A stretch of 64,000 bases of DNA from Lingula anatina (taxonomy: Eukaryota > Animalia > Brachiopoda): NCBI GenBank assembly GCA_051362555.1, contig CM120646.1:17174001-17238000 (forward strand), read 5' to 3'. Both the position numbers and the translations under genes were made by a program. Of this stretch, positions 37,627 to 61,637 are shown piece by piece. Position 1 is the stretch's first letter. Each line of letters begins with the position of its first letter. The notes under the pieces were generated by a model. The model was not told the DNA's origin. It ran no database searches and was given only the letters and a program-made list of their open reading frames with translations.

Positions 37627-39891
37627 ATGGCCTTTGTACGTGCAAGTCTGGTGTTCCTTTCAATGCTGCACATGGCAGGTTTGGTATATTCCCATGATCC
37701 AAATGCAGGGAAAACGACACTGCATTGCCGAACGAACTGCAGCCTTCAACCTACCCAACATTCACTGCACAAGTTTCGGGACGTGTTTGAAAGCAACGGC
37801 GTCAAATTTGTGGATGTTTTCATGCAAGTCAAAGAGAACAACAGTGACTCAGAACCAAGGACAAAATCAAGCGTTTTTCAACTCTTTCAGTGGCATGTGA
37901 TAGATAAGAAGAGTGGTGTGGTTTATATGAAACTAGTGTATGACTTCGAGGTCCTCTCTTTGTGGACATTAAGTTCGGGGATATATGAACTATCGATAGA
38001 GTTACTACCAATTCAACCCGACTGCTGGGCGAATTTAGATCTAGAATGTCAGCTTTTCACGGTGTCTAAGGCTGTTCTGCAAGTGCTGAATGCACTGAAA
38101 GAAAAACTAGGGGACAATGGTTTGAGGTTATGCGGTGAGAATCACTTTCACCAAGGTGGGTTTTTCCAAGAAGATAGTTGTATCGATGTAGCCAATGTTA
38201 CAAAGTCGACGTCATTAACATTTCTTCCTGCGGAGAAATCTAATACCAGTTATATATTAACAGGAATATTTGACTTGGTAGTCGTTGGAATTTTTTTGGC
38301 TGTTTTACCCCTCCTTGTGTTAACCATTTTACCAAGGGGGGTTTCAACTTTTCTAAGCAAAGACGCTTTTCGGGAACTCAAAACATTTGAATACTGCAAC
38401 GGTTTCACCCCTCCTACAGAGAGACTGTTCATGATACTACAGAATTCTCGACTGTGCATACCTGTCCGAGTTCTTTTATTTGTGCTACTGCACTCTAGCT
38501 CGCTTTTCGCTTTCTTAACGAACATGGCCTTTTATTCAAATGTATGGGTGTCGCAGTGTTCTCATTTACGCTTCCTGAATTTTTTATACCTTACGAAGTT
38601 TTTACCCTCTTTGTTCACTGCTGTTCCTACGTGCATTCGTTTAGGGGTCCGTCCATGGGCAGATTTTGCTATTACGTCACTCGCTTTGGTAGCGTTTGTG
38701 TGGTCCTTTCTCTTTTTTATCTTAACGCCGATGTTGACTTATGAACGACTGGAAGGTAGTTTATTAACTAAAATGGATTTTAGATTTGCTGCTGACACTA
38801 CTTTTGGGATGCCAATGCCGAACTTATGTCTTGAAAAGTCCATGAGGATGTTCATGAATCCTTGCATGTTTGTAAAAATGCTGAAAGGAACTTTTGTGAA
38901 AAGGAAAATAATGGATCTTGTAATGATGCTTCTTATACTGCCATTATTCCCTTTCGGCTACATATTTTTTCTTGCTCTGTATGTGCAACAAAGCTTCTTT
39001 AACAAATGCCCCTACGTGTGTTGCCGCTGGTTTGGTCACGCTTACAAGGTTCTATCACTTGTGCCTTTCTATTATTTTGTTTTACTCTATATCGACGTTG
39101 CCTACCGCCTGGTTTGGACTTTAGCCATGGTGCTGTCTGGACTGGCACTTAACACGAATGGTGTTCTGCCGTACGTGGTATTGGCGTTATCGTTTCTGTA
39201 TTACATGATTTTGCCCTTCCACAACTTGCAAGATGAGTATAGAAAATTAAAATTGATAGTGTTTGAGGAATGCGAGCGAATGTTCAGTGAATGTGGGGAC
39301 TTAGGTCAAAATTGTGGGCCTTTGGCGGAGATGGGTCTCGAGGAACACATTCAAAACTCCAGGGCATCAGCTGAATCAGTTGCGCGCGACGACCAGGGTA
39401 CTACGACGCCATTGTTGCAAAGGGGAATCGACGCCACCCATGAATACAGTGACGTCTTAACTTACGGCACTGGTGAAATATCATCGAGATTTGATACTTG
39501 CGATGGACCGATTTACGTTTGCGACAATTATGGCAATAAGAAAATACACAAACAACTATGGTGCTTCATCTGTAGTCGAATCTTGCCTCCAAGACAGAAG
39601 CTGCTGAAGGCGTCTTTCACCGCTTTCTGTTTGATAATGTCGATACTGATATTTTCCCTTGGACTTGTGGCTTACAACGCATATGAAAGATTCACCACCA
39701 TTGGACATTCGTTTTCCACCTTTGCGACGGCCATTGTACCAAAGTTTCTTTACAACTTTTTGGCTTCTGAGAGCGCCAAGCAATCAAAGGAGCGACGCTG
39801 GAGAAGTATTGTTGTAATAACGATCAAAGAATATGCAAACATTGCTGCAGATAAGAACAATCGAACGCACGAACGTCGATCTTTGATATAG
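37627..39891 (+). CDS. Uncharacterised 754-aa multi-pass membrane protein (signal peptide, Cys-containing ectodomain, ~8-10 hydrophobic segments); CDS in a single exon
   Basis: Long uninterrupted ORF. Acceptor tttccttttag| at 37608 lies just upstream of the ATG; hydrophobic N-terminus MAFVRASLVFLSMLHMAGLVYS; AATAAA at 40080. Confidence 0.9.
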   Translation: MAFVRASLVFLSMLHMAGLVYSHDPNAGKTTLHCRTNCSLQPTQHSLHKFRDVFESNGVKFVDVFMQVKENNSDSEPRTKSSVFQLFQWHVIDKKSGVVYMKLVYDFEVLSLWTLSSGIYELSIELLPIQPDCWANLDLECQLFTVSKAVLQVLNALKEKLGDNGLRLCGENHFHQGGFFQEDSCIDVANVTKSTSLTFLPAEKSNTSYILTGIFDLVVVGIFLAVLPLLVLTILPRGVSTFLSKDAFRELKTFEYCNGFTPPTERLFMILQNSRLCIPVRVLLFVLLHSSSLFAFLTNMAFYSNVWVSQCSHLRFLNFLYLTKFLPSLFTAVPTCIRLGVRPWADFAITSLALVAFVWSFLFFILTPMLTYERLEGSLLTKMDFRFAADTTFGMPMPNLCLEKSMRMFMNPCMFVKMLKGTFVKRKIMDLVMMLLILPLFPFGYIFFLALYVQQSFFNKCPYVCCRWFGHAYKVLSLVPFYYFVLLYIDVAYRLVWTLAMVLSGLALNTNGVLPYVVLALSFLYYMILPFHNLQDEYRKLKLIVFEECERMFSECGDLGQNCGPLAEMGLEEHIQNSRASAESVARDDQGTTTPLLQRGIDATHEYSDVLTYGTGEISSRFDTCDGPIYVCDNYGNKKIHKQLWCFICSRILPPRQKLLKASFTAFCLIMSILIFSLGLVAYNAYERFTTIGHSFSTFATAIVPKFLYNFLASESAKQSKERRWRSIVVITIKEYANIAADKNNRTHERRSLI

Positions 39892-40689: not shown

Positions 40690-42751
40690 GAAATTACCTG
40701 TAAAACTTACTTGTCGTCCAGACATTTTATGTTTGTTTGTTTTCAAATTTTGATTATTTCCAGTTAACCCTTCTACCATTTTACCCTGCAAATTAGGTGT
40801 ATGATAATTTTGCAAAAAGAAGTATTTAAGGGTCTAGGGAGGGGGTACATGTATCTTGGAGCGACATGATCGTATACTATGACACTACAAATACTTAAAC
40901 CTTCAGAGGGAATCCCCTTAAATACAAAAAAATAGAAATTGTTCATCCGATCGGATTTTTACAAGTATGCCACTGTAGACTGTAGATCTACAGGTACACA
41001 GGGGTATCAGCTGGCTAAAAAGACGAAATCATCTACTTTCATGTACGTCCTTGACGGTTACAAAGGTATCTTCAGCTGGAAAGAGGCTGGGCGTAGGAAG
41101 ATATTTGGGTCGTCGCGTGGGATGAGATAAGGTCGAGTTCGTAAAAAACACATTTGACGCTTTTTGTATAGTATGCATACCCATCTTTGGCACTTAGATT
41201 TAAATTGTAATGCAGTGTATTATGAATGAGCGCAGCTGTCGGACACAAAATTAATAATTTTGTTAATTTAAAATAAAATATTGCATAGGCCTACATGACA
41301 ACACGTAGCCAAACAGTTCGAACTGTTTTTTGAACCTAGTCAATAATCTTAGCTGATAAAAAAACGCCGATATAAAATGACCTTAACCTTGTCGGCTATT
41401 CATATAATGCACCCGCCCCCTCTTCATTTATTCCTACATTTCAACTCAAACGTATTTTTACGGGTTGGTTTTGATGTCATTCACCCCTCCCCAATTGCCA
41501 CAATACCAATCAAGCTAAAAACAAAACGAGAAGCAGCGATTGTTTAGTCTACCTTATTGAAGACAGTGGGCATAACACGAGAAAGCTTTGCATACTGGGA
41601 TGGAAAAAAGAGGTTTAATACATGTAACAGCTAGTTTGCTCTTATCTGATTTTTTGGGTTCACTTTGAAGCTTTGGGAAAGGTACCAGTAATCTGTTCAT
41701 AGGCCATTTGGACACTGATGCATGTAGATGGCAACGGCTTAAAATCATTGGAGGAACCATAAAGAAATTTATTCTCTAAAATGCAATTGTAAATGGAAAC
41801 AGTTCGGATGCAGCAACAGGAAAGTTTTTATGATGCAAGGAACTCTGTGATTATATAGTCACATATGTTTCACTTTATGTTAAGGCTTATTTGACAAGAA
41901 CAAAGACATATGCCCCATTCCCCTAGACACCAGCATTCAGCGAAGAGAGCTGCGGAGCCGGAACGTAGAACGAATCTTTCATTGTGAATGAACTCTTCAT
42001 GGCATCTAGTGGTATTTTGCATAAGGAATTTTAAAAAAATCTCGACTCGACTATATCCCGCGCTGATAACCTAACAAGACAGAATAATCTATCTGTATTC
42101 TCAAAATACCGGCTGAAGTTTCAGAGAGTCCACCAGACCAAATTGTAAGTCCATTTTTGGGTTTATAAAATGTCCTTTTTTGTTTCAGTAAGTAGACTAC
42201 CGAATTTGAGAGGAGCAGATATGATAAGCTACAAATCAAACCTCTCTTATCCATGTAAAAAGAGGAAGGGTCTCTGAGGTCCGAAGTTCGAAATATTGTG
42301 CCATTCTATCACAAACAGTGTTACCATAAGATTTGTTTTTCTATTTTAGCAACGGCACAGTTTGAGAGCCCCGAAATTTGGGTGTAAATACATTTTGTTA
42401 AATTACCTTTGATGAGTTTTAAAAATTCAACTGATGGATGGTAATGTCTGCTTTATAACTACTACATACAACCCCAAAATAACAAAAATTTTGTCCGAAA
42501 TTGAAAAAATTCCAATAAAAAATTCAATGCGATAAACATGCAACCTAATTTAGGTAACCTTGTGTGGTATCCTTTAAGCGTAATAATTTTTTCTGCATTT
42601 ATCAATGGATTATCTCTTACAATTGGCAGGTTAGAAAAAAAGCTGTTAAAGGTCCATAAATACAGTTAAAGAGATACTGAAAGAGATGCATGTACAAAAG
42701 CGACGTAAAATACTATATTCAACAGAACTTTCTTTTTTAAAGCGAGTGTTA

Positions 42752-44822: not shown

Positions 44823-44916
44823 ATGACGGCCGAAGTGTGTAGACGCTGGAAATGGACATTTGCCCTGCTGCTGCTATTAGGGGTTGCATCATTAGTTTTA
44901 ATGTATTATCATACAG
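44823..44916 (+). CDS. GT gene 1, coding exon 1: short cytoplasmic tail and type II TM anchor (MTAEVCRRWKWTFALLLLLGVASLVLMYYHT)
   Basis: Acceptor cattgccag|ATG and donor CAG|GTAAGT (phase 1) splice in frame to 46606. The exon is conserved in the paralogue. Confidence 0.88.
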
Positions 44917-45324
44917 GTAAGTGAATGGTGTGGGCATACCATAACATCTCTCCCCGTGCAGTAAGAACTGAATATGATATCGGTATATTACCAGATTATC
45001 ACGATGGACAATACAATACAATTACTGAGTACCTTGTAATTTAATATGCACTGTTAGTTACAGAGATTGCTGTCGGAAATACATGTGTGCCTTGAACTTC
45101 TCAATAATAGTATATATATTCGCAACTGGATATTTCAATGGGAAGCATGAATCAAAACAAATTACGACTGGTCTTTGCACGAATTCATTCACGAACTTAA
45201 GACATATGCACAGCAAACACTTCCGTTGTGATTTTAATCCGTGGAACCTCGATATGGAAGCAGTACGTGTGCAATCATACACCGAATTGAATTTGATTTT
45301 AATTAAAATATTAAAATATTGTTA

Positions 45325-45720
45325 AGGACACTGTTAGCCCATGCCAAAGCTTCCGATTTACTGCCTTGCATACATTCTTCTTGCTAACAAATAAATCTTC
45401 GGTGTTCATTAACTAAATAATTAACATTTACACACGTCATCTCACGGATGACGTCAAAATTTTAATTTTGGGGTATTAATTGAAAAATCAGCTTCTCAAA
45501 TTTCTCCTTTACCCGAACACCTACAAACATCGTTTCAACGCCAATTTAATGACACCATTTAGTACTTCAGAACCCTGCTAGCGGTTTTTCCTAAAAGCCT
45601 TAGTTCAGGTTCTATCGTTTACAAAGCAAAATAATGGGTCTGTTTAATAAAAATCTGTAATTAGGGGCTTCTTACTCCATAACAAGACAATAAAACCAAA
45701 ATGGCGTCACGGAATTAAAG
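45325..45720. mobile_element. Dispersed repeat fragment (TTAA-GG end, Kolobok-like?), inverted relative to 54270-54590
   Basis: 45330-45660 is the diverged reverse complement of ~54270-54590. Both loci have a ttaagga(c/t)actgt end (45322 and 53895). Confidence 0.55.
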
Positions 45721-46605
45721 GCCCATAGACTTGTCGTCAACTATGCCAATTTTCGAGTCTCTGTTTCGATGGCTAATGGTGACCAACAGCACGTTTTAGT
45801 TTTACATTAATTGCCAATCACAAGACTTGCTAACTGATTGTCCATACATTGAAGGTGCTCTCTTTGAATTTCAGACACATGTAACAGGTTTTATTGCACT
45901 GATTTTTTACAGCATATTACCTATCAAATTTAAAGGTCTGGACTTTCCACAACAAATATTGTCTTTATATATTCATGGTGCAATGATATTGTAAAGCGTA
46001 TCTTTATTTCACTAAAATGTTTATTTAAAAAAATTGACGACCCAAAATAAACATCAAAATCCTGAAATGCAAGACAGATATTCGTAAAGAGTATTGCATT
46101 GGAGGAGTTTCCTTTGATTGAAGCTCACGAGGTTAAGATGAGAGGTTCAGTTCCATCTTATAATAGAAATAACATGTATTACACACAAATGTCCAAGGTG
46201 ACGTTAATGAAATCGCGTTACAATGTTAAACCTATAGTTTTGATCATGGAAATATATACTGAATCTGGTGACGCACGACAAGCTTTTTGGAACTAAACTT
46301 GCTTGTTCGGTTTTGGACTTTTCTCTTTAATTAGGACAGCTATCATATCTATTTTAATGGCACACACATTGTAGAAGCTTCCATGATATACTAAATTAAA
46401 ATGCTTTTAAATTGCTTTAATTGATTAGTACGTAAAACTGATGATTGTATTTCGTTTAACTATAGTGAACGCGTTCTTCTTTATACCGAGACACCCATAC
46501 GTATATTATATGAACGATATTTATATGAATTAATATCAGTATTGGTACATATGCCATAAGAAATACATGTTACACCAATGCCTACAAAAATTAGTTTCAT
46601 TCCAG

Positions 46606-49433
46606 GTGGCCTACTGAATGTTTTAGCCCCCCTCAAGGCTGGAGAGCAAGTTACTGTTACATCGTATGTGTCGCCACCTATTGGCAACGCCAGCTTGGTG
46701 CCATCTTCAGCAAAAGAGAAAGTGAACGCAAGTCGCAATTTGGGGAATAAGACGCAACCCCTCAAGTCACCTAAGGGGGAAATCACACACCTCGAGAATC
46801 AAGGTACTCTTTTCCGTTTAACACGCATTTTGCCAACTGCCATGCCAACAGTTAATGAGTCAGTATCACCTGTATCAACATTCATGAAAGAGGATTCGTT
46901 AATAAAACGATATAAACAATTACTCCCCAATCAAAATACATCTTCAGACCTTCTCATGGTGTGGTCGCACTACACCGCAATCCCACAACCTTTAATGGAT
47001 AAAATAGACACGTTTTTCAAGTTGAATCCGGAAAGAAATGTAGTATTTGTGTGTGGCAGTAGTAAATGCATGGATCAAATAAACGACAAGTTACGTGAAC
47101 ACGCGAGAATACTGCGGTTACGCTTGCCTGCGCTAGCAAAGGGTAGTCCTCTAGATGATTTCGTTCCCAAATCCGCAATTCTCAAATTGGTCATGGGCCG
47201 TAGATTTCAAGTGCTCATGCATGAAGTAAGTGTTTTGCTCGCACTGTGGACATTTGGTGGGCTGTACATAGATATACAGTCAGTTATGACGTCAAAGGTA
47301 CCAGATGAATATTTCAAGGGTGAATGGATGGGTAATAAAAGTATATTTTCGATATCCAGATTTGAGCGACGCTCTCAGGTCATCAAAAATGCCATGGGTG
47401 TTATTCAGTGGGCTTACAGCAGTCACAATAGAAGTCAAATCCTAAAATGGGACACTGATTCAATTTTGTGGAGTTCAAAGGTTTTGAACTACTTAAAGAA
47501 AAGGACAATTGAAGTGGACCTTAGGAAACCTGTAATAAAGTCTTTGCGAGGTGGCCATTATGGGGTATTAACTCATGACAATCAAACAAAAGTTATCAAC
47601 AACGGGGATGAGATTCAGACATTAGCAGCGCTACAATTTCTTCCTTTTGTCGACCGATTTGTGGACCGTGACACGTGGGACATCACGTGCATAGACACAC
47701 ATAAGCAGACGGACAATGTTGACATATTTGTAAATGTTACGGAAAACACTAGAAAGAAAAAGCATGATAACGAGACAATAACGATATTTCTAAACGCACG
47801 GTATAACGCCGGTGACATTATATGGCCCCCAAAAAGTAATCTGAATCCTTTAATACTATCAGTGTATTTTGGACCAAATTCCTGGAAGAAGCTATTTACT
47901 GAACCAGGCAAAAATTACCTAAAAGAACATGGTCCTGTAGGAGCTCGCGATCAGAGTACATTCAAAGTTTTACGAGATAAGAATATTCCAGTGTATATGT
48001 CGGCCTGTTTGACACTTTTGATTCACAATGGCAATTCAGACTCAAAAAGAGAGGATGTACTTGTCGTTGACGTGGATCGGCGAGCTGTAGAATTAATTGT
48101 TCCTTATCACATACGAAAATCGGTAATTACTGCCACTCATAACTTGCCCAGTTCGATGAAATTTGACATAATAGCGCGCTATGAAGCAGCAAACCATTTA
48201 ATGGAACAATATTCACGCGCGAAACTGGTTTTGACGTCACGCATCCATTTTGCACTTCCATGCGTTGCCATGGAAATTCCAGTGGTTTTTGTAAAAACGG
48301 CGCTTTCACCTAAAGGAGAAAGGGATCGAACAGACGGTTTAACAGAACTTTTTCATACGGTTACCGTGGACAAAATGATGACGTCATACAAAGGGATGGA
48401 AAACTTCAATTGGGACAAACCAGAAATTAATCCAAATCGGGAAATAAGCATGCGGTTTCGCGACTCTATGTGGCAGGAGATACAAAAATTCCCAGCGTTG
48501 CGAGAAACGGCGATTACATTTGGGAGAGTACCTTTGAAAACAGGCAGTAGATTTAACCCTAATAAGCGCCCAGTGTTAACCTTCTTTCAGGTTTACACAA
48601 CGAATGAAGTGACACGGTGGAATCGACGTTCACTCGAGAGTATTTTTTACCACCATCCCAATGCAAAAGTGCGCATTTTAAGCAACGCACTGTCACAAGC
48701 AAAGGTTTCTGCCTTCAATAAAGCAGGCTTCCATGTACAGGTCAGAAACTATACTCTGAGAGGCTTACTAAAGCGAATACAAAATTTGGAGCCTCGAACT
48801 TTTACAAATCCCTCAGAGGTGTTTTTGAAAAGATTACCTGTTATTTCCAAGGGATCATTTTGGTTTAGCCACGAAACTGATTTGATTAGGATAATAATGC
48901 TGTATCTATATGGTGGCGTTTATATGGACACTGACGTTATTTTAGTAAAAAGTTTACAGAATTTGTATAATGTAACTGCATGGGAAAACAAAGACCATTC
49001 GGCGCTAAATGGAGCTGTTCTCAAGTTTGATAAGCGAAATCCTTTCCTCCGTGAGTGCATAAAAGAATTCTTAGATAACTATCAGCAGAATGTCTGGGGA
49101 GCGAATGGACCATTGCTCCTCACTCGCATGGCGAAAAAATATCCCACGTGGATATGTAATGTTAGCCGCGCCGAAGACGCACAAAAAGAAAAGTCCTGCA
49201 TAGTTAGATGCTTATATCGGCAATCATTTTACCCAATACAGTTTCGTGAATTAAAAACAAAGTGTTTCATTGAAAACGGCACGTTTGACATTCAGCGTGC
49301 GTTGCTTTCAGAAGCTTTTGCTGTGCATTTGTTTCATCAGTTTACAAAGAGTTATACAAAGACCACAAAGCCTGGAACGCTGTGTCGGTACCTACTTAAC
49401 AATTTTTGTATTTTCTGCAGTGATTTAGTTTAA
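46606..49433 (+). CDS. GT gene 1, coding exon 2 (spliced protein ~973 aa): stem + degenerate GT32 + polysaccharide pyruvyl transferase-like domain + GT32 alpha-1,4-glycosyltransferase (A4GALT/A4GNT-like)
   Basis: Acceptor tttcattccag|GT, phase 1. Motifs: LWTFGGLYIDIQ; NNGDEIQ, VGARDQST, LTSRIHFALPCVAMEIPVVF; RRSLESIFYHHP, SHETDLIRIIMLYLYGGVYMDTDV, NGAVLKF, WGANGPLLLTR, FYPI, AVHLF. Confidence 0.92.
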
Positions 49434-49847
49434 CTAGTTATATTGCATGTACCCGATAAAAGACCGAGGAGGAGCTGCGTAGCTGCCCATCGGTACTCCT
49501 TTAGCGATGGTAAAGGCCACGGAAGACTGGTCTAGTGACGCGGTATTCCAACACATGAAGCCTTCGGCAGATATGAAATGTGATGTAGTGTTGAAAGCGA
49601 TGTTGAGAGTTTGAACAAAAACGTAAATTCGACGTCCTTGTTTGAACTAGTGTTTATATTGTTATGACACGTAAATGCGCTGAAAAACAGTAACATGTGA
49701 CTGCTCCTAAAAGACAACCTCGTGGTCCACTGTAATGATATGCATATATGATATGAAGTGATATGCAGTTTATAGTACAAATAACGTCAGTTCTATACCC
49801 CCTCACCCACTCATACTCTGGGTTAAGGATTTTGAACAGCTGCGCTT

Positions 49848-49895
49848 AGTAATATTGCTACCTGTATCTTTTAAAATACAGGTAGCAATATTACT
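49848..49895. repeat. Hairpin with perfect 20-bp arms, 3' of GT gene 1
   Basis: agtaatattgctacctgtat-cttttaaa-atacaggtagcaatattact. Confidence 0.85.
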
Positions 49896-49998
49896 TATAA
49901 TAATAATAATAATAAACTTTTGGTTTTTTAAAAACAAAAATAAACTTTTGGTTTTTTAAAAACAATATTTCAAAAGTGTTGCAATTCATTCACATATG

Positions 49999-51654
49999 CA
50001 GACTTGACATTAATATGGAATATTTTTTCCAAATCTTTTTTCATCAGTTTTTTTTCCTATTTTACTGACTGATAAATAAAAATAAGGATTAAAATCGTGT
50101 TTATATAACTTTTAATTAACTTTTAATTGTGACATCAGTTCATTAATTGAATTCGCCAGAGAGGCAAACAGAAACATATTGCCTATTCTATGTCATACGA
50201 CAACCATTAAAAGTGATATTTTGGATCTCCATATTTTCCAAATTTATGTCTGTAAAAGAGTTACACGCTCCACAAAGGACCCTCATGTCAGTGTCTAGTC
50301 ACAGTAACGGTCGCTGTTACGCCTGACCTCTTCTGGCTGCTACCAGCGCTCTCAAGTGGCAAGGCATTCCTTGGGATAGGTTTTTAGAGGTCAATCTGGA
50401 ATAACATTTCAACCATCGGTCAAAATCTGTCCAATTTGGTCCAGTTTTGTTGTAGGACATGTAGGCCATGGATTTGGCGAGTAATGGCCTACCCACACAT
50501 TGTCTATATGGTTCAAATATGGCGATTTTGATGACCAAGGTGGCTGCCCATTCCCTTGGTTCTGTAAGTAATTTGCTATGAAAAGTGCTCTGTGTGAATC
50601 GGCAATCTCACTGTGCAACCTAAAATTGTTCCTAAGGTGCCCCCTATCAAATGATAGTCAAGTGGTTCCCAGATTATTCCTTTATTTGATCTGGTTCAGG
50701 TTTTTGTCATTGGCTACAATTGGTGTTTTGGCACCAATGTGATATCCACTCCAAATACTGATGCGGTTAATGGCCTTAGTCACTAAAGGCGCGGCACAGG
50801 CTTCGTCGTTGGCCTCTTCTGGGTGTCTCTAAACTCTGTTTTGACTAGTTGATCGGTACAGGTGAAATCTGACCTCAATAAAGAAAGCCACGAGATTTCA
50901 GTGTTCTACCCAGAAACGGTCAAGGTCCCCAATTCATTAGAGAGACATACAATGATGTTTTGCTGTTTACAGTGGGTTCCTCGGAGGTCGTATGGTATTC
51001 TAACTTGCTAAAATCAGTTTGGTTTTCCCTAAGGGCCCTGAAAAATGCGTTTTGGTGGCAATTTACCCTTCATTCTGAACGAACTGGGTGGTTTTTGTTT
51101 AGTTGCAACAACATATCCCGAAAGACAGTGGGTCCTGTACCCTGGTGGTAAGATTTTAATACATTGGGTGTGGCCTCTGTGTAGGTACATCAGTCTGGGC
51201 TTTACACTATAAAACTGTGCGGACCGTTTCGTTTGGCGCAATTATCTGTCTGGCAATGTCTCTCTTTTTCGCGCCATTCTGCCAAAGATTAACAAATTTG
51301 TAAAGCACTGCATAGCTAATTTTACACATTGCATATCCGACCACTTGCATGCAAAATTTCAAATTCCTTTATGTAGTAGTTGCCGAGATATGGTTACTTA
51401 TTTGACAGAACCATGCTTTGCCAAATCCAAGCTTTGACCTGCCCAAAGGAGCACTACCCAATTAAATCACTTGATATTACATAATGCAGCAGCGCAACAA
51501 ACCTGGTATTCAGTTAATTGGTAGCGACACACCTGGCTACACACTTCTCCATTCACATATCTTATATGAGATCGGAGTTTTTTGAAAAAAAGAACGCATT
51601 ATTACCAAGGCGTACCTTCGAAACTGAAATATTCCATATTAAATGTCAAGTCTG
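49999..51654 (-). mobile_element. Fossil Tc1-family transposon (~1.66 kb)
   Basis: TIRs CAGACTTGACATT(T)AATATGGAATATTT at both ends, with TA after the right end. Contains a decayed transposase. Confidence 0.88.
50317..51260 (-). pseudogene. Degraded Tc1 DD34E transposase
   Basis: Minus-strand fragments FFIEVRFHL..RV*RHPEE (cf. FSDESRF..RVWRRPGE), ISIWSG (cf. VMVWGG), PWSSKSPYLNHIDNVW (cf. WPSxSPDLNPIENVW) and GMPCHLRALVAARRG (cf. SMPRRxxAVIAAxGG), with stops and frameshifts. Confidence 0.85.
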
Positions 51655-51656
51655 TA

Positions 51657-51871
51657 TGTTGATGTACTTTGTTTAAGTACATGTACATGTAGTTGCCTTT
51701 ATTATAGTGTAACTTATAAATGTAGTTTTAATAAACTTCAAACTTTTTAAATAGTGCATGTATAAGACAATATCGGTCTTGAAAGTTTATTTTAAAAAAC
51801 TAAATTTATAAGTTACATTACTATAATAACGGTAACTACATGTACTTAAACAAAGTACATGTACATCAACA
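51657..51871. repeat. AT-rich foldback, ~85-90-bp arms
   Basis: tgttgatgtactttgtttaagtacatg...ataaacttcaa is inverted to ttgaaagtttat...catgtacttaaacaaagtacatgtacatcaaca. Confidence 0.85.
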
Positions 51872-54197
51872 CGTATGGAGGGGGCTGATATGAACTAACA
51901 ATTGTCACATTGACCACAATGATGATAATTATAATGGCAATAATTGTAAAGATATTTAGCTTCTGAAAGGACAATTTACAATTTGCGTGTAAAAAAACGA
52001 TTAAGAAAACAATTTGCCAGGTAGCAACGGCTAATGTATGCAGTGCCCTATGGCTTTTATTTCTCTGTACAGCTTCCTTTGAGACTTTTGAAAAGGAATT
52101 TACGGTAAATTTTTAAAGGAGATTTTATAACTGAGATATGAATCTTAGTAGCTTGGTGAAGCTATACTAAATCTCAGCATAAAACAAACTCATAGTAAAT
52201 AAGTTATCTATCTAGGAACGCCCCCGGTCGGCTTCTCAAACAAGACCTCGTATACATCATGTGCTTCAAAGTTAATGATAAGACCATGTTCAGGGACAGG
52301 CGTTGCGCGGGATGAAATGCATATGTACGGCCTCCGGGTTATTGATTGTAATTGCAGATATATACATGTACATCCAAACTGACCCTATTTTTGACAAGGA
52401 ATAAAGTTTCCATTTGATCTACAGCCTACCAACGAAGCTTCTGAGGCTCCGTAGTTACTCCGCTGTCGTGGACACAGCTAGACTCTGGCTCGTATTCTAG
52501 AATGTAATATTTTCGCTAGATTGAATTTGAAATGAACAAAAATGCGAACATGGCAAAAAATACATGCAAAAGAAACGCCCCGCCTCCCCCCCCCCCCCCC
52601 CCCAAATAAATAAGAACTTTTGCAAAAAACAATTCGATTTTCAATTCATATTTTTAAAGGATTTTGTCTCAGCATAGAGTCCCACTCAGAAAATTTGAAG
52701 TAAAACAAAAATTAATACTTCTTGGCACTTATTGGGCAAGCATCGTCAAAATACATGCAAAAAAGATTTTTAAAAACATCACAAATACAATAACTTTTGT
52801 CAAAGTAACTCGATCTTGCTAATTTACGAAATGGAACCTGCCATTAAATCAAACCAAATTGCAAGTTTGGAGTAAAACAAAAACACAGTTTGCAAATAAA
52901 CCTTTGCGATAAATTTTCTTTTTTAAAAAATCACTTTGTTTATGCTAATAACATTCCTTAGGCCTAATCGACAACACGTATCGAAATGCAGGTCAAACTG
53001 CGTTTTGAACCGAGTCATTTATCTTTGCTGATAAAAAACGCCAGCACTAAAAGACCTTACGTAACCTCGTCTGCCATTCAAATAACGCACCCACTCCCTC
53101 TTCATTTGTTAATTCAGTTCGCCTACAACTCGACTTTTTGGGTTGGTTCTGATGTCATTCGCCTTATAATACATATATAATACAAATCAAGCGAAAAACT
53201 AGAATTAGCAATTTTAGTATACATTATTGACACCAGGAAACTTTGCATACTGGGTTGGAAAAAACGAGGCACAGTACATGTAACAGCTAGTGAACTATTT
53301 TCTACTCCCATGGTTTCACTTTGAAATCTGCACGTACTGGTAGGCCATATGGACAATGATAAATGGCATCTGTTTATGATTATTGGAGGGACCAGATTTG
53401 CTCTCCCAAATGCAATTAGAAAGGGAACCATTGAAGATGCAGCAACATGAGAGGATTATTAAAATGGAAAGAGCTTTGTGATTAGTCACATATGTTCTAT
53501 TTTATGTTATGACATTTTTTTTGACAAAAACAAGGACATAAATATCAAATATTCGAATTGCTGTCGGTGACACAAATTTCATCCAAAGACATCAAAACCA
53601 CGATGACAAATAGAAAGGTGAGTATTGATCTAAAACTGCTGTAACACTAAAAATTAATTTTTTACAACTATTTTCTTTTTGGCAGATAAGTCAGTAACTT
53701 ACATTTGAATTGAAATACGCATGATATATTTTATATAAAAAATACATTTAATTTAATTTGTCTTTTTAAATTTAAAATGTTTAATTTAATTTAATTTATA
53801 TTTTTAAATGTAGGCCTAAACGTATTCCTAAATTGCTGGCTGTCTGATAAATAATATGGCGGGCAGACGTCGAGTCTACGGCATTTGAACATCTTTAAGG
53901 ATACTGTAACCTTTTATTGTCATCCAGATACCGAAATTAGTTTTTTGCTTGAATCTAAATATTTAATAATGCATCTATCTTTGTGCTAATGTAAAACATT
54001 GAAAAAAGCCGCGAAAATATAAAATATCACCATTTATATTTTTCCGTTGCAATGTATAAGCATAAGCAACTCAAAGCTTTAATCGTCAATTAAACCTCTT
54101 TCTATTTTGTAGTGAGATAGCAATCGGTATGTGGCGGTACGTCATCACTAAATAAGATTTTATCACGAAAATTGGCAGAGTTGACCAGGAGTGTTGA

Positions 54198-54232
<35 letters not shown>

Positions 54233-57200
54233 TTAAAAAGTTTTTGTTATGGAGTTATGGGCCACTAATTGCAGATTTTCATTAAACAAAGGCATCATTT
54301 TGCTTTATCAACGATAAAATCTGAACTAAGACTTAAGGTTTTGGAGTATTAAATGGTGTCATTACATTGGCGTTAAAACGGTGATAGAGGATGCTCAGGT
54401 AAAAGAGAAATATGAGAAACCGATTTCTCAGTTTTTACCGCAAAATCGTAATTATGACGTCACCCGTAAGATGATATATGTGTAAATGTTAATTAATGTA
54501 GTCACTGAGCACCTAGGATCCATTTATTACCCAAAAAAATGTATGTAAAGCAGTAAATAAGAAGTTTCGGGCGAAGGGTGACAATTAATGCCCGTAAGCT
54601 AACTTTCCGAGACTATTTGGATATCTTCAGATTTAATATTTTCATTTCGGTATGTCGACTCCTCCAGAAAGCCTCCTATTGTGCCCAACGTACTCGTATA
54701 ATCATCTGCTTTTCTTTTCCCTAATTGAAAACAAGAGCATGCATTAATCTGTTAATGTAACTGAATTCAGCAAGATTCCCCGCTGAGTTGGATCGGTTTA
54801 GGTAGAACGATATAGTTTCATTAGGAATGAGCTTTTCAGTCATCTATTTCACATGGTTTTTCATATAAAGGAAACTTTTAAAAATGTTATATCTAAATAT
54901 TAATTGTACGCCCAGATTTGGATTTATAAAATGCCATTTGTTTCAGTAAGTGTGTCACCATATTTTTGGGAGGTGCAGTTATGATAAGCTACAAAAGGAA
55001 CCTCCCTTATCTATGTGGCAAAAGGTCCGAAGTTCAAATTATGGGCCCATTCTATTTCACTATTCTATTTCAATATTATTGTAATGGCCAATTCGCTTGA
55101 TTGAATAATGATACATTGGGGAGCCCCGAAAGTTGGGTGTAAATTGATTTCGGTCAATTTATATCTTTGGTTAATATATCTTCATGAATTTTTGTTGTTG
55201 ATGTTTTAAAATTCAAGTGATGGATGGTAATATCTGGTTTATAACTACTACCTGTAAATCCACAATTACATTTTAAAATGTCCATATTTTTTTAGGGAAC
55301 CAATGCTCGATTCATATGTATTTTAACGTATATGTAAAAGACTTCTAACATAATTTACTGGCGTTATAGACATAAGTACTCAGGGTTTTAGTCCGACTCC
55401 ACGTTCTGTCGACGGATACAAGTCACCGTTACCGCTTCTCCTCCTAAACCACAGGGACCTGTGTCCCCATCTCTTGGAATTAGGTCACATAAATCTCAGC
55501 TTGTTCCCCATGGGTTTTGGTATCTGACGGCGCAATCGCCTAGGCGTGACGCTCATCGCAGCGCACCCTTTTTGAAGATTAAATGCTTTATAATTCCCAC
55601 ACCGAATGAGTTTTGGAAAAAAATATAACAGAAGTTTGACCGAAAATCATATGTTGAGATTTCAAATATGCCTTTGGATTTGACTTTTGATATTCATTTA
55701 GTGTCAAAACAAACGGGCCAAAAAAAATTATTGGTACCGATTTTCAGAAACTACAGAGACTTATGCTTTACATTATGGTGATGAACCACATCATGTGCAC
55801 TTGGGGTCTCTTTTCTTGGAATAACTCTGACCTTCAAAGACAAATGAAATGTTGAATCAAGGTCGTCTGGCTCTATTAAATATATTCCTGGAGAAAAACC
55901 TATATGATCACAGCGGCGACACCGCCGCCAGATATTGCACCACGAAGCTGCACCATTCGGCTGCATTGGGCGCATTCAGCAAAGCGGACTAACTAGTCCG
56001 CGGATCAAATATGGCCGATCCACTTAAATGCTTGTTGCGTAATCCCCTAGGGGAATCTATTCAGCGTCTATTAGGGAATTAATTTTTCATCAACACATCA
56101 CCATTTTTCATTATCACCAGAACTTTAATTTTAGAAAAGTTAACCGGTAGACTCCAGTCCTCGCACGCCATAAGCGTTAAAAAATTATATTTATGAAACT
56201 TCCGATGTCTTGCGTGATTTTTTTTACATTCTAGTTATGCCATGTTAGATACCAGTAAACCAATATATTTCACTCGCCACACTTGTCGCTTGGCTTTTTT
56301 CCCAAGTATTGTATATTTATTTTTTTCTGTCGGTAAACATTTAAGCGACTATCAATCAAAAAGCCAGACAGTTGTATTTACGTAACTTGGCACGTTATCA
56401 TTTATACGCAACAATCTATTCTGCATTAAGAAATGGCTTATCTGTTACTATTGAAAGGCCTTTTAAGGTTCTCTTAAAGAGATAGGAAAGCGACGTTTAA
56501 AAAAACCTTTCTTTTAACGCGAGTGTTACTTTTCGCACCTCCACCTATCCCACGAAATTCTTTGAAAAATAAAAATGATTACCTCGTAGCTCGCACAATC
56601 TGCGCCTACATGACAATAGGGGGTAACAGAAATTTTAAGAATATCAATTTATTAGTTGTTCTCGTGTAAAATTGTTTAGTCTCTATATTATCAATAATAT
56701 CTTTGCAACGAGCTACGTTTTAATCTTAGAGAATTTTATTTAAGCAGTTTTGATACACATCTTGAATATAATGTTAATTAGATCAGCAGACTTATTACTA
56801 ATTAGATCAGAGATAATGCTGTAAATAAAATGGCTGCAACCAGCAGATTTAGCAGTGTTGTCCCCAGTGATTTTGTCAAAAGCAACCCCCACAATCAAAA
56901 TTCTAAATGGCAAATAAATTATGTTATGATATTTTTGTGTAGCTAGGGAAAGATTTCCAAAATAAAAACTCACCCATTGCAGTCTCTTTTGAGGCCAAAG
57001 TCCAAGATGACCGACAATGGACAATGTGTTATATCAAAGGAGACCAGAGCAATAATTAAATAATTAATTAATTAATTAATTAATTAATCAATTAATTAAA
57101 TTTAACAAAAAATAGCGGAACAAAAATCGACTAAAAACCATTGGTTGAAGAAAGCTGCTGAGTTGTGACTGCTGGTGTCAAGAAGCGCTGAGAGTAGCTG

Positions 57201-57446
57201 TGGAAGGGCCGCTGAGAAGACCGCTGCTGTCAAGGGTCGGAGATTGCATGTGCTGTCGCTGCTGCCGTTCCTGGAGATATAATATGGAGATATTGTCCAG
57301 TTAATATACAACAAGTACCTGAGACAAAGGGAGTCAAAATCTCTCTTCAAAAGGAAAGTTCATTAGCAGAAAAAGGGGGAGCTGTCGCTGACGCGGAGTA
57401 ACTACATATCATGGCTTTCTTTTTCTTTTTTCTTTTGCTTTTATAG

Positions 57447-57549
57447 ATGACGGCCAAAGTGTGTAGACGCTGGAAGTGGACAACCGCACTGCTGCTGCTG
57501 CTATTCGGGGTTACATCATTAGTTTACACATTAATGTATCAGTATGCAG
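57447..57549 (+). CDS. GT gene 2, coding exon 1: type II TM anchor (MTAKVCRRWKWTTALLLLLFGVTSLVYTLMYQYA)
   Basis: Acceptor ttttgcttttatag|ATG and donor CAG|GTAAGC (phase 1), in frame with 58378. Confidence 0.88.
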
Positions 57550-58377
57550 GTAAGCGATTGGTGTGGGCATCGTGTGGATATCGTACTTTGATATATTAAC
57601 ATCTTATCCCGAAGAACGTTAACATTTTCAGTTTACCGTGAAGATATCAAGAATTGCTGTTGGAAATATGCATGTGCCTTGAACTTTCTCGAAAAAAATG
57701 TAGAAATATTCGCAACTGGAAATATTTACGGGGAAGCATGAATCAACACATTCTTTTATTAGAATATTCCATCATTTTTAGTGAGAGTTTTAAAGGTGAA
57801 GTAGCTTTTTGGATTTTGGACTTTTCTCTTCAACCGGGACAGCTATCCTTTTTATCTTAATGGTACACGCTGCATCAAATCATACAAAACAGTTCTATGA
57901 ATTTCCCTTAAATGCTTTATTGTTTTTATCTGTTACTACTGGGATAGGTAAAAATAATGATTGCATTTTATTCATCTATAGTTAACTCCTCCTTCACATC
58001 GTGACCCCATTTGCATCTGCATAATATTTATATCAGTTGATATTGGTTGGTGCACCTGTCCTAAGAGTCGAGTTGCCATGCCATAGGTCCTATAGTAGAA
58101 CCCTGTAATGAATTTCCCTGCAAACTTTCTATTACAGAAATGCGTTTCTTAGGACTAGAGAAGTAAAATTAGCTTGGTTGCTACTTTCGAGACATTGAAC
58201 ATTTTTCATATGGCCTTCAATTTGTGAGGGAAAATAGAAATACAGCCCGAAGTCAACAGGTATACTTGTAAGGTATACTGTAAAAAAAAGTTTACAGGAA
58301 AGAACATTGAAGTGATAGCGTCCTGACAACTCGACTGAGACATACTTGAGTGTCTACAAAAATTAGTTTCATTCTAG

Positions 58378-61300
58378 GTGGCCAACTGAATGTTCAGGCC
58401 CCCAACCGGGCTGGAGAGCAAGTTTCTGTTACAATCCCGCTGTCGCTATCTATTGGTAACGCCAGTTTGACCCCATATTCAGCAAAAGAGAAAGTGAGCG
58501 CAAGTCGCAATTTGGGGAATAAAACTGCCGGTGTACTAACCCCCATCCAAACTGGAGAACAAGTTACTGTTACACCGTCCGTGTCGCCACCTGTTGGCAA
58601 CGCCAGTTTGGTCCCATCTTCAGTAAAAGAGAAAGTGAACGCAAGTCGCAATTTGGGGAATAAGACTTCCAATGTTCCAACCCCCCTCCAAGCTGGAGAG
58701 CAAGTTACTGCTACATCGTCAGTGTCGCCACCTATTGGCAACGCCAGTTTGGTCCCATCTTCAGTAAAAGAGAAAGTGAACGCAAGTCGCAATTTGGGGA
58801 ATAAGACTTCCAATGTTCTAACCCCCCTCCAAGCTGGAGAGCAAGTTACTGCTACATCGTCAGTGTCGCCACCTATTGGCAACGCCAGTTTGGTCCCATC
58901 TTCAGTAAAAGAGAAAGTGAACGCAAGTCGCAATTTGGGGAATAAGATGCAACCCCTAAATTCAACTAAGGGGGAAATCACACATTTCGAAAATCAAGGT
59001 TCTCTTTTTGGTTTTACACGCCTTTTGCCAACCGTCATGCCAACAGTTAATGAATCAGTATCACCTGTATCAACATTCATGAAAGAGGACTCGTTAACAA
59101 CACCACATCAACATTTACTCCCCAATCAAAATATTATTAATACATCTTCAGACCTTCTCATGGTGTGGTCGCACTACATCGCAATCCCACAACCTTTAAT
59201 GGATAAAATAGACACGTTTTTCAAGTTGAATCCGGAAAGAAATGTAGTATTTGTGTGTGGCAGTAGTAAATGCAGGGATCAAATAGACGAAAAGTTACGT
59301 GAACACGCGAGAGTACTACGGTTACGGTTGCCTGCGTTGGCAAAGGGTACCCCTCTAGATAATTTTGTTTTTGAATCAGCAATTCTCAAATTGGTCATGG
59401 GGCGTAGATTTCAAGTGCTTGTGCATGAAGTAAGCGTTTTGCTCGCACTGTGGACATTTGGTGGACTGTACATAGATATGCAGTCAATAATGACGTCAAA
59501 GGTACCAGATGAATATTTCAAAGGTGAATGGGTGGGTAATGAAAGTATATTTTCGATATCCAGATTTGAGCGACGCTCTCAGGTCATCAAAAATGCCATG
59601 GGTGTTATTCAGTCGGCTTACAGCGGTCACAATACAAGCCAAATCTTTAAAATGGACATTGATTCAATTTTGTGGAGTTCTAAAGTTCTAAGCCAGTTAA
59701 AAAGTAGAAAAATTGAAGTGGGCCTTAGGGAAGCTGTATCAAACTTTTTGCGAGGTGACCATTATGGGGTATTAACCCATGACCATCGAGCAAAAGATAT
59801 CAGCGCCGAAGATGAGATTCAGACATTAGCAGCGCTACAATTTCTACCTTTTGTCGACCGATTTGTGGACCGTGACACATGGAACGTCACGTGCATAGAG
59901 ACACCTGCACAGACGGACAATGTTGGCATATTTGCCAATGTGACAGAAAACAGTAGAAACAGAAAGCGTGTTAACGAAACAATTACCATATTTCTAAACG
60001 CAAGGTATAACGCCGCTGACCTAATATGGCCTCCAAATGATAATCTTAATCCTTTAATGTTATCGATGTCTTTTGGACCAAGTTCCTGGAAGAAGTTATT
60101 TACTGAGCCAGGCAAATATTACCTGACAGAACATGGCCCTGTAGGAGCTCGTGATGAGAGCACATTGAGAGTTTTGCGAGAAAAGAATATTTCAGTGTAC
60201 ATGTCGGCCTGTTTGACACTTTTGTTGCAAAATAGTAATCCAACTGTGAAACAAGAGAACGTCCTTGTCGTTGACGTTGATCAAAGAGCCTTAGAATTAA
60301 TTGTTCCATACGACATACGAAAAACAGCGATTACTGTTACCTATAACCTGTCAAATTCGATAAAATTTGATAGATTAGCACGCTATGAAACGGCACACCG
60401 TTTAATGGAACAATATTCACGCGCAAAACTGGTGTTAACGTCACGCATCCATTTAGCACTTCCATGCGTTGCCATGGGTATTCCAGTGGTTTTTGTGGAA
60501 ACGGCGGCCTTATCTGAAGGAGGTGGGAATCGATCAGAAGGTTTAACAGAACTTTTTCATACAGTAACTGTGGACAAAATGATGCAATCATACAAAGGGT
60601 TGGCAAACTTTAATTGGAACAAACCAGAAATGAATCCAAATCGTATTTTAAATATGCGCTTCCGCGCAACCCTGTTGCAGGAGGTAAGAAAATTCCCAGC
60701 GTTGCGAGAAACGGCGATTACAATTGGGAGAATACCTTTGAATACCTTCGGTCAATCTAACCCCAATGAAAGCGCTGTGTTGACGTTCTTTCAGGTTTAC
60801 ACAACGGCTGAAGTGACGCCATGGAATCGACGTTCACTCGAGAGTATTTTTTTCCACCATCCCAATGCAAAAGTGCGCATTTTAAGCAATGCACTGTCAC
60901 AAGAAAAGGTTTCTGCTTTCAGTGAAGCAGGCTTCCATGTACAAGTCAGAAACTATACTCTGAGAGGCTTACTAAAGCAAATACAAAATTTGGAACCTCG
61001 CACATTTACAAATCGTTCAGAGGTGTTTTTGAAAAGATTGCCAGTTATTTCAAAGGGATCGTTTTGGTTTAGCCACGAAACTGATTTAATAAGGATAGCA
61101 TTGTTGTATTTATATGGTGGCGTTTATATGGACACTGACGTTATTTTAGTAAAAAGTTTACAGAATTTGTATAATGTAACTGCATGGGAAAACAGAGACC
61201 AGTCCACTCTAAATGGAGCTGTTCTCAAGTTTAATAAGCACAATCCTTTCCTCCGTGAGTGTATTAAAGAATTCTTAGATAACTATCAGCAGAATGTCTG

Positions 61301-61637
61301 GGGAGCGAATGGGCCATTGCTCCTCACTCGCATGGCGAAAAAATATCCCTCGTGGACGTGCAATGTTAGCCGCGTCGAAGACGTACAAAAAGACAAGTCT
61401 TGCGTCGTAAGACGCTTATATCGACAATCATTTTACCCGATGGAGTTTCATGAATTAAAAACGAAGTGTTTCATTAAAAACAGCACGCTTGACCTGCAGC
61501 ATTCGGTGCATTCGGAATCTTTTGCTGTGCATTTGTTTCATCAGATTTCAAAAAGTTATACGGAGACCACAAAGTATGGGACGCTGTGTCGGTACCTACT
61601 TAACAATTTTTGTATTTTCTGCGGAGATTTAGTTTAA
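58378..61637 (+). CDS. GT gene 2, coding exon 2 (spliced protein ~1120 aa): 4x repeated stem + degenerate GT32 + pyruvyl transferase-like domain + GT32 (DTD)
   Basis: Acceptor tttcattctag|GT; paralogue of 46606-49433 with the same motifs, except that NNGDE is replaced by SAEDE. Confidence 0.92.
58410..58946 (+). repeat. Coding tandem repeat: 141-bp (47-aa) unit, ~4 copies
   Basis: Units start at 58410, 58551, 58692 and 58833 (AGEQVTATSSVSPPIGNASLVPSSVKEKVNASRNLGNKTSNVLTPLQ). Gene 1 has a single copy at ~46638. Confidence 0.95.

What the first reader, a model, noticed from the sequence alone, without database searches (positions are those of the whole stretch)
44823..61637. Tandem genes for a three-module Golgi-type enzyme: GT32(degenerate)-pyruvyltransferase-GT32; candidate animal glycan pyruvylation system
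Seen: both genes encode a type II anchor on a separate exon (missed by the ORF track), a stem, and three modules. The middle module (~47560-48400 and ~59760-60600) has N-x-G-D-E-I-Q, G-A-R-D-x-S-T and T-S-R-I-H...A-M-x-I-P-V-V. The last has the full GT32 motif set with DTD. Established: these middle motifs characterise the polysaccharide pyruvyl transferase family (PF04230; bacterial CsaB/WcaK/ExoV, fission-yeast Pvg1), which uses PEP to add pyruvate ketals. GT32 includes Gb3 synthase A4GALT and A4GNT. Pyruvylated glycans are reported in a few animals (sponge aggregation factor, Aplysia nerve glycosphingolipids), and I know of no characterised animal enzyme for them. Inference: a fused enzyme that adds an alpha-linked sugar and caps glycans or glycolipids with pyruvate, giving a sialic-acid-like negative charge. 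It predicts a Golgi PEP transporter elsewhere in the genome.
Basis: partly seen in the sequence, partly recalled or inferred. Interest (0 to 1): 0.88.

Follow-up and report, generated by a model that had tools for sequence, protein, structure and literature searches.

The report
Animal sugar-pyruvylating enzyme, tandem genes
Two neighbouring genes of a lamp shell (brachiopod) each join a domain shaped like the yeast and bacterial enzymes that add pyruvate to sugars with a sugar-transferring domain; they likely put pyruvate caps on cell-surface sugars inside the Golgi, a modification found in a few animals for which I found no described enzyme.

Summary
Confirmed. Two tandem Lingula genes each predict a type II membrane protein with three modules: a decayed GT32, a PF04230 pyruvyltransferase domain and an intact GT32. 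The middle module passes Pfam's cut-off, and its confident model matches fission-yeast Pvg1p and Klebsiella WbbZ best. Both copies keep four core residues (D, R, R, H). Of 101 multi-module family proteins (the window's two included), 53 carry a fused TPT-family transporter, among them those of starfish, Hydractinia and Balamuthia. This supports the predicted PEP supply, though the Lingula genes lack that domain. Corrections: the family is not animal-specific (amoebae, a foraminiferan, a green alga; bacterial GT32-pyruvyltransferase fusions resemble modules 1-2). Most relatives keep only one of the two active sites; the Lingula pair is among 5 of 59 with both. Against: gene 2 has S-A-E-D for N-x-G-D, both genes have Arg at a conserved Trp, and RNA reads matched a third paralog, not these genes. 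No activity was tested. Ten literature searches showed no described animal enzyme. An earlier scan note reports a similar transporter fusion in a diatom.

The parts
44823..44916 (+). Gene 1 exon 1: short basic tail and predicted type II signal anchor
   Evidence: ATG at 44823, donor GTAAGT at 44917, 19-residue hydropathy 1.99; no read across the splice
46606..46940 (+). Gene 1 exon 2 start: stem with one copy of the 47-aa repeat unit
   Evidence: Phase-1 acceptor at 46605, homologous to that of gene 2; self-BLAST
46941..47534 (+). Gene 1 module 1: shortened, decayed GT32 domain (D-I-Q at the DxD position)
   Evidence: HHalign against module 3, 95%, E 2e-8; Atlas; DxD kept in 6 of 93 family proteins
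47547..48539 (+). Gene 1 module 2: PF04230 pyruvyltransferase domain; N-N-G-D (D at 47607), G-A-R-D-Q-S-T (47940), T-S-R-I-H (48234); Trp replaced by Arg in N-A-R-Y
   Evidence: Pfam; model pLDDT 92.6; best folds Pvg1p and WbbZ; conservation
48561..49433 (+). Gene 1 module 3: intact GT32 domain (D-L-I-R, D-T-D, G-P, H), to the stop
   Evidence: PF04488 and PF04572 above cut-off; GT-A fold; motif table
57447..57549 (+). Gene 2 exon 1: basic tail and predicted signal anchor
   Evidence: Donor GTAAGC at 57550, hydropathy 1.91; same junction as NCBI model P0004
58378..59144 (+). Gene 2 stem with 3.8 copies of a 141-bp (47-aa) Ser/Thr/Pro-rich repeat bearing N-glycan sequons
   Evidence: TRF 58410-58947; acceptor 58377
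59145..59747 (+). Gene 2 module 1: decayed GT32 (D-M-Q)
   Evidence: Own profile; 86% identical to gene 1
59751..60743 (+). Gene 2 module 2: PF04230 domain; S-A-E-D in place of N-x-G-D, N-A-R-Y, G-A-R-D-E-S-T, T-S-R-I-H
   Evidence: Pfam 55.7 bits; codons and conservation
60765..61637 (+). Gene 2 module 3: intact GT32 domain, to the stop
   Evidence: Pfam; motif table

Best explanation
These two tandem genes encode predicted type II Golgi membrane proteins whose middle domain has the Pfam signature and core residues of PEP-dependent ketal pyruvyltransferases and a predicted fold closest to them; it likely caps a terminal sugar (probably galactose) of glycoproteins or glycolipids with pyruvate, giving a negative charge, while the intact C-terminal GT32 domain likely adds an alpha-linked hexose or HexNAc from a UDP-sugar. 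Shown: architecture, Pfam matches, residue conservation, and the fused TPT-family transporter in relatives. Predicted: the folds and the splice. Inferred: Golgi location and luminal PEP supplied by a separate TPT/SLC35-type PEP/phosphate exchanger (fused in starfish, Hydractinia and Balamuthia relatives, absent from the Lingula genes). Also inferred: module 1 is a catalytically dead GT32 kept as a structural partner of module 2, inherited from a bacterial-type GT32-pyruvyltransferase fusion. Gene 1 is the better candidate for pyruvyl transfer; gene 2 may be weakened.
For: PF04230 above cut-off in both. Model of module 2, pLDDT 92.6: Foldseek best hit Pvg1p 5ax7, E 2.7e-4, then 6x1l; VIA Z 14.2 (rmsd 4.5, 247 aligned) and 13.3 (rmsd 4.3, 218 aligned), next 10.2. 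6x1l is the proven pyruvyltransferase WbbZ, and the family motifs are NxGD, RxxxS/T and H (PMC10629545); gene 1 has all three. T-S-R-I-H aligns with the Pvg1p stretch holding R337/H339 (numbering counted by me). A TPT domain is fused in 53 of 101 multi-module proteins; its best PDB match is the triose-phosphate/phosphate translocator 5y78, E 2e-14. The four phosphate-binding residues (bioRxiv 10.1101/169169) are all kept in 25 of 50 transporters. All 25 sit on proteins with intact D-R-R-H, and none of the 13 proteins with a broken site keeps all four. Yeast Pvg1p needs Golgi PEP transporters Pet1p/Pet2p. dN/dS between the two genes is 0.29-0.40 in all modules. In 5 of 6 bacterial loci scanned, the stand-alone relative lies beside sugar-polymer genes.
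Against: No activity, location or glycan was tested, and no pyruvylated glycan from a brachiopod or starfish turned up. Both window genes have Arg where 92 of 115 fused and 59 of 63 stand-alone proteins have Trp; the NCBI copy of gene 1 has Trp. Gene 2 has Glu for the motif Gly. No read of 95% or more identity could be assigned to either coding exon; the reads fit a third paralog. The transporter/enzyme co-decay rests on about 5 events and is not significant on independent pairs. The fused transporters mostly keep Phe263 (38 of 50), which in plant translocators disfavours PEP. Structural similarity to Pvg1p is moderate (TM about 0.4). The Lys361 equivalent is not aligned.
Confidence: 0.7

Rival explanations
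1. The family pyruvylates glycans, but in these two window copies module 2 is weakened or dead, and the proteins work mainly as GT32 alpha-glycosyltransferases, as in relatives that lost the pyruvyltransferase site.
For: Trp to Arg in both genes and Gly to Glu in gene 2. Eleven of 59 three-module proteins keep GT32 without the full D-R-R-H set (one of them is only truncated). No fused transporter. Module 2 is the most diverged between the genes (74% against 86%). No reads were assigned to these genes.
Against: D, R, R and H are all kept in both genes, and dN/dS in module 2 is 0.40. Another relative with E-D keeps all core residues and an intact transporter (P0025). The NCBI copies have Trp (gene 1) and Gly (gene 2), so these changes may be allelic.
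Confidence: 0.17
2. Module 2 uses PEP or another phosphorylated three-carbon donor for different chemistry, such as an enol-pyruvyl or lactyl ether, or acts on a non-sugar acceptor.
For: The subfamily is distant from every assayed enzyme (13-16% identity to Pvg1p). The fused transporter resembles a triose-phosphate carrier at Phe263. Unchecked earlier scan notes propose such chemistry for other PF04230 proteins.
Against: The fusion partners seen are glycosyltransferases (GT32; GT8 in 16 of 36 proteins scanned) and transporters; no reductase was seen. Bacterial relatives sit in polysaccharide loci. The pyruvate described on animal glycans is a 3,4- or 4,6-ketal.
Confidence: 0.1
3. The genes are not the animal's own but come from a contaminating or symbiotic protist or bacterium.
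For: The Lingula proteins group with a foraminiferan and Balamuthia rather than with other animals, and almost all coding sequence is in one exon.
Against: GT-AG introns; near-identical proteins in the NCBI Lingula anatina annotation on a 636-kb contig; four paralogs there; a close paralog read mostly on one strand in three polyA runs under the same species label; no break in GC content.
Confidence: 0.03

Closest known systems
Schizosaccharomyces pombe Pvg1p (PDB 5ax7) with Golgi PEP transporters Pet1p/Pet2p
   Same: Type II membrane protein, GT-B pyruvyltransferase fold (best match), Asp/Arg/Arg/His site, and a PEP carrier in the pathway.
   Different: Pvg1p is a single-domain 401-aa protein with separate galactosyltransferase and transporters. 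Here the domain is flanked by a dead and a live GT32, and in many relatives is fused to the transporter. Identity is 13-16%.
Klebsiella WbbZ (PDB 6x1l) working with the polymerase WbbY
   Same: Second-best fold (Z 13.3); motifs NxGD, RxxxS/T, H; caps a terminal galactose made by a partner glycosyltransferase.
   Different: Bacterial, a separate polypeptide, acts on O-antigen; no membrane anchor or GT32 fusion.
Uncharacterised bacterial GT32 (Caps_synth/Gly_transf_sug)-PF04230 fusions, about 560-610 aa
   Same: Best Atlas match to modules 1+2 (score 0.95; structure TM 0.52 over 328 residues): the same two families in one chain.
   Different: Their GT32 is recognised by Pfam, whereas module 1 is decayed. 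At about 560-610 aa they are too short to hold a third module. Their activity is also untested, as far as I found.
GT32 alpha-1,4-glycosyltransferases (A4GALT/Gb3 synthase, A4GNT; names recalled, families)
   Same: PF04488 + PF04572, DxD, GT-A fold, type II anchor.
   Different: Those are single-domain enzymes; here the domain follows a pyruvyltransferase. Donor and linkage were not tested, nor was orthology.
Plastid phosphate translocators (GsTPT2, PDB 5y78; PPT)
   Same: The domain fused in relatives matches 5y78 (E 2e-14) and often keeps K204, Y339, K362 and R363.
   Different: Absent from the two window genes; His185 is mostly Asn; Phe263 is kept, unlike PEP-preferring PPT; below the TIGR00817 cut-off.

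Membership tests
Ketal pyruvyltransferases (PF04230: Pvg1p, WbbZ, CsaB, WcfO) | Pfam score above the gathering cut-off | tested here: met
   51.2 and 55.7 bits against 25.3
Ketal pyruvyltransferases (PF04230: Pvg1p, WbbZ, CsaB, WcfO) | GT-B fold closest to solved pyruvyltransferases | tested here: met
   Gene 1 model only: 5ax7 Z 14.2, 6x1l Z 13.3, next 10.2; Foldseek in the same order
Ketal pyruvyltransferases (PF04230: Pvg1p, WbbZ, CsaB, WcfO) | N-x-G-D motif, gene 1 | tested here: met
   N-N-G-D, D at 47607 (motif from PMC10629545)
Ketal pyruvyltransferases (PF04230: Pvg1p, WbbZ, CsaB, WcfO) | N-x-G-D motif, gene 2 | tested here: not met
   S-A-E-D; only the Asp is kept
Ketal pyruvyltransferases (PF04230: Pvg1p, WbbZ, CsaB, WcfO) | PEP-binding R-x-x-x-S/T and R-x-H | tested here: met
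   R-D-Q-S-T / R-D-E-S-T and T-S-R-I-H in both; the latter aligned to Pvg1p
Ketal pyruvyltransferases (PF04230: Pvg1p, WbbZ, CsaB, WcfO) | Lys equivalent to Pvg1p K361 / CsaB K328 | tested here: inconclusive
   Not a Lys in the alignment; a conserved Arg lies a few residues on (95 of 115 fused, 62 of 63 stand-alone)
Ketal pyruvyltransferases (PF04230: Pvg1p, WbbZ, CsaB, WcfO) | PEP-dependent ketal formation on a sugar | not testable with these tools
   Needs an enzyme assay
GT32 alpha-glycosyltransferases, module 3 | PF04488 + PF04572, DxD, GT-A fold | tested here: met
GT32 alpha-glycosyltransferases, module 3 | Transfer from a UDP-sugar in alpha linkage | not testable with these tools
   Needs an assay
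GT32 alpha-glycosyltransferases, module 1 | Homology to GT32 | tested here: met
   HHalign 95%, E 2e-8; Atlas structure row names Caps_synth
GT32 alpha-glycosyltransferases, module 1 | DxD motif and full-length domain | tested here: not met
   D-I-Q / D-M-Q; about 200 against 290 aa; DxD in 6 of 93 family proteins
Pvg1p/Pet1p-type Golgi pyruvylation pathway | Type II anchor in frame with the catalytic exon | tested here: inconclusive
   Splice sites, phase and hydropathy fit, and NCBI model P0004 has the junction, but no read spans it
Pvg1p/Pet1p-type Golgi pyruvylation pathway | A PEP transporter in the same organism | not testable with these tools
   None in the window; no genome held; fused in 53 of 101 multi-module family proteins
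PEP-preferring PPT translocators (fused domain of relatives) | Asn in place of Phe262/263 | tested here: not met
   Phe in 38 of 50; Asn not among the six commonest residues printed
Plastid-type phosphate translocators (fused domain of relatives) | Phosphate-binding K204, Y339, K362, R363 | tested here: met
   All four in 25 of 50, including the Patiria, Asterias and Balamuthia proteins

The most novel reading that the evidence does not exclude
A widespread, undescribed eukaryotic family of Golgi machines (PEP importer + dead GT32 + pyruvyltransferase + GT32 or GT8) makes pyruvate a common non-sialic negative cap on glycans of marine invertebrates (brachiopods, echinoderms, hydrozoans, probably molluscs), and includes the enzymes behind the sea-hare and sponge pyruvylated glycans. 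Lingula holds a rare version with both active sites intact, gained separately from the starfish/hydrozoan version.
Probability: 0.5. Interest if true: 0.9.

Novelty: new variant of a known kind. Interest (0 to 1): 0.78.

Why it matters
Pyruvate ketals were described on a sponge adhesion proteoglycan and on sea-hare nerve glycolipids. The two reviews I read in passages name no animal enzyme, and one review's sequence survey kept only proteins of 250-600 aa, which would have excluded these fusions. This family gives concrete, expressible candidates, predicts the modification in phyla where I found no report of it, and in its four-domain form couples donor import to use in one polypeptide. A eukaryotic Golgi pyruvyltransferase would also be a glyco-engineering tool, as Pvg1p was (PMC4872226).

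Tried and rejected
No genome is held, so a free PEP transporter and further paralogs in Lingula could not be sought; six-frame scans of the window found no TPT domain and no third paralog. Sequence searches of the PDB missed Pvg1p with the single protein and a small profile and reached it only weakly with 98 rows (E 0.005). Fold searches of the whole model were filled by modules 2 and 3, so module 1 had no fold test of its own. No RNA holder was listed. Seven of nine listed runs were laid, four on each gene (6-26% of each run read): no splice joints. Independent-pair tests of co-decay had too few pairs. The first tree timed out. NCBIfam gave nothing for the window proteins. A Pfam scan of 56 of 76 minus-strand ORFs upstream gave nothing. 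No sponge or Aplysia member was named among the 30 proteins looked up (most carried no name), so their presence is neither shown nor excluded. Rejected: animal-specific family; obligatory in-cis 'add then cap' mechanism; module 1 as an active transferase. No complex was predicted because no binding is claimed. A search for SLC35E1 with PEP and Golgi gave one irrelevant paper.


Full report
1. Observation. The window holds two long plus-strand ORFs, 46560-49433 and 58350-61637, 87% identical in DNA over the luminal part. Each has an upstream exon encoding a basic tail and a hydrophobic segment, a GT donor and a homologous phase-1 acceptor; joined, they give 973 and 1120 aa with no stop. Pfam finds PF04230 in the middle and PF04488 + PF04572 at the end, all above cut-off. 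Profile comparison shows the first module to be a shortened GT32 homologue without DxD. The middle-module region of gene 1 is 98% identical to Lingula anatina LOC106160056, so the organism is a Lingula. The duplicated unit includes flanking DNA.

2. The middle module. AlphaFold2 gave confident models of gene 1's whole luminal part (pLDDT 92, pTM 0.92) and of module 2 (pLDDT 92.6). Both fold searches ranked Pvg1p first and 6x1l second; 6x1l is WbbZ, shown to be a PEP-dependent pyruvyltransferase (PMC10629545, passages). That paper's motifs (NxGD, RxxxS/T, H) are all in gene 1; gene 2 keeps D, R and H. T-S-R-I-H aligns with the Pvg1p stretch that, by my count from the chain length, holds R337 and H339, residues implicated in PEP binding (PMC4872226 and PMC10435577, passages). 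D106 and R217 were mapped through the motifs, not by direct alignment. The structural match is moderate (rmsd 4.5, 13% identity). Against full activity: both genes have Arg at a position that is Trp in 92 of 115 fused and 59 of 63 stand-alone proteins, and gene 2 has Glu for Gly. The NCBI copies have Trp in gene 1 and Gly in gene 2, but Arg in gene 2. dN/dS between the genes is 0.35, 0.40 and 0.29 for modules 1, 2 and 3.

3. The family. A profile search of 1.84 billion representatives found 4222 proteins at E up to 0.001; the best 150 were listed. Among the 160 proteins then held (the window's two included), my own profiles gave 42 TPT-m1-m2-m3, 19 m1-m2-m3, 10 TPT-m1-m2, 26 m1-m2, 3 m2-m3, 1 TPT-GT32-m2 and 59 with m2 alone (the TPT profile was built from five of them and a few hits are weak). 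Of 36 proteins scanned with Pfam, 16 carry GT8 and 2 a UAA transporter. Named members: Patiria and Rotaria, Asterias and Hydractinia, Bolivina, Balamuthia and Mastigamoeba, Ostreococcus. Most of the 30 proteins looked up had no name. The Atlas lists a 60-member eukaryotic cluster with PF04230 (97%) and TPT (93%), commonest in Mollusca, at score 0.79, a lead only. For modules 1+2 its best hit (0.95) is a bacterial GT32-PF04230 fusion. Stand-alone bacterial relatives lay beside sugar-polymer genes in 5 of 6 loci scanned, of 15 fetched. Eighteen viral-contig loci also encode relatives.

4. The transporter. The fused domain of Asterias matches the translocator 5y78 (E 2e-14). Using that structure's residues (bioRxiv 10.1101/169169, passages; numbering counted by me from the alignment), the four phosphate ligands are all present in 25 of 50 fused transporters. 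All 25 have an intact D-R-R-H enzyme site; 12 with an intact site have a changed set (6 of them only Tyr to Gln), and all 13 with a broken site have a broken set (13 near-duplicates and short hits were left out first). The raw table gives p 3e-5, but relatives are not independent: 5 changes on the tree, 1 well-supported pair, not significant. Phe263 is mostly kept, which in plant carriers disfavours PEP, while His185 is mostly Asn, so the pocket differs from both plant types. The Lingula genes have a single anchor instead, and the window holds no transporter.

5. Two active sites, usually one kept. Of 59 three-module proteins, 38 keep only the pyruvyltransferase residues, 11 only the GT32 residues, 5 both (including the two window genes) and 5 neither by a strict rule. 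Independent pairs point the same way but are too few (4 supported, p 0.125-0.25). So pyruvyl transfer does not seem to need the fused GT32 activity, and whether the two sites act in sequence in Lingula is open. Known animal and yeast ketals sit on beta-galactose (PMC6801904, passages), whereas GT32 enzymes make alpha linkages (recalled); the GT32 product may lie under or beside the capped sugar rather than be it.

6. Origin. On modules 1+2 the Lingula proteins group with Bolivina, Balamuthia and unnamed proteins (98/99), apart from the echinoderm-Hydractinia group (97/94). With the 11 named rows (Rotaria left out as a long branch), an all-animal clade is rejected (AU p 0.002; I named the group after seeing an earlier tree). 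Transfer between eukaryotes and old paralogy with losses both fit; no direction is claimed.

7. Expression. Seven runs under the same species label were laid, four on each gene. On gene 1, 38 reads were laid; the six amino-acid changes they show in the coding exon all match the third paralog P0005, and 6 of 13 letters differ from gene 2. On gene 2, 133 reads were laid, none at 95% or more; two loose ends read by eye as P0005 sequence. Reads on the coding exon lie almost all on one strand, the sense one for a usual stranded library. So a close paralog is transcribed at a low level; expression and splicing of the two window genes are not shown.

8. Literature. Searches for an animal pyruvyltransferase or this fusion listed none. 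The library holds only open PubMed Central papers and bioRxiv, I read passages rather than whole texts, and I opened no supplements (the alignment and enzyme list of PMC10629545 are there). PMC6994554, PMC6801904 and PMC8724618 (passages) mention pyruvate on sponge, sea-hare, algal or yeast glycans and name Pvg1p as the eukaryotic enzyme. An unchecked note of this scan reports a transporter-pyruvyltransferase-GT fusion in a diatom.

9. Verdict. Real and well supported by sequence and predicted structure: a pyruvyltransferase-family domain in a secretory-pathway architecture in an animal, part of a patchily spread eukaryotic family that often carries its own phosphate-exchanging transporter. 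The chemistry is of a known kind; the architecture and the animal setting are undescribed in what I could search. Confidence that it works as stated 0.7; interest 0.78.

Noticed in passing
window 37618-39891 (+): Single ORF of about 754 aa with a signal-like start and about 7 further hydrophobic segments; no Pfam match.
   Followed up: partly
window 20562-22499 (-): 645-aa low-complexity open frame, probably a large exon of a minus-strand gene (GC skew is negative over 1-36 kb); no significant Pfam match here or in 56 of 76 smaller minus-strand ORFs.
   Followed up: partly
window 58130-58290: Short element in the gene 2 intron, absent from gene 1; RNA reads lie on both strands with opposite-strand joints, suggesting a dispersed inverted-repeat (MITE-like) element.
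   Followed up: no
window 58410-58947: The stem repeat has about 4 copies here, about 7 in the NCBI model P0004 (counted by eye) and 1 in gene 1: stem length varies between copies or alleles.
   Followed up: no
P0003, P0004, P0005, P0182: The NCBI Lingula models look incomplete: P0003 lacks the anchor exon, P0004 and P0005 end early in module 3, P0182 ends early in module 2. Four RNA reads of the P0005-like paralog show no indel where that model leaves the frame.
   Followed up: partly
window 46941-47140 and 48941-49140 against gene 2: DNA identity between the genes is 95% in these stretches and 79% at 47941-48140: patchy gene conversion or uneven constraint.
   Followed up: no
window 41277-41910 / 52950-53540; 45344-45685 / 54244-54570; 51656-51866: Dispersed repeats (69% direct, 75% inverted) and a palindromic element.
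   Followed up: no
P0159; P0187 and L019: P0159 has transporter, Pfam-recognised GT32, then pyruvyltransferase, a possible form before module 1 decayed. P0187 has a GT8 domain inserted inside its pyruvyltransferase domain, with a 77% relative in a Pelagibacteraceae bin.
   Followed up: partly
L002-L006, L015: Six giant-virus bins (GVMAG) encode relatives of module 2.
   Followed up: no
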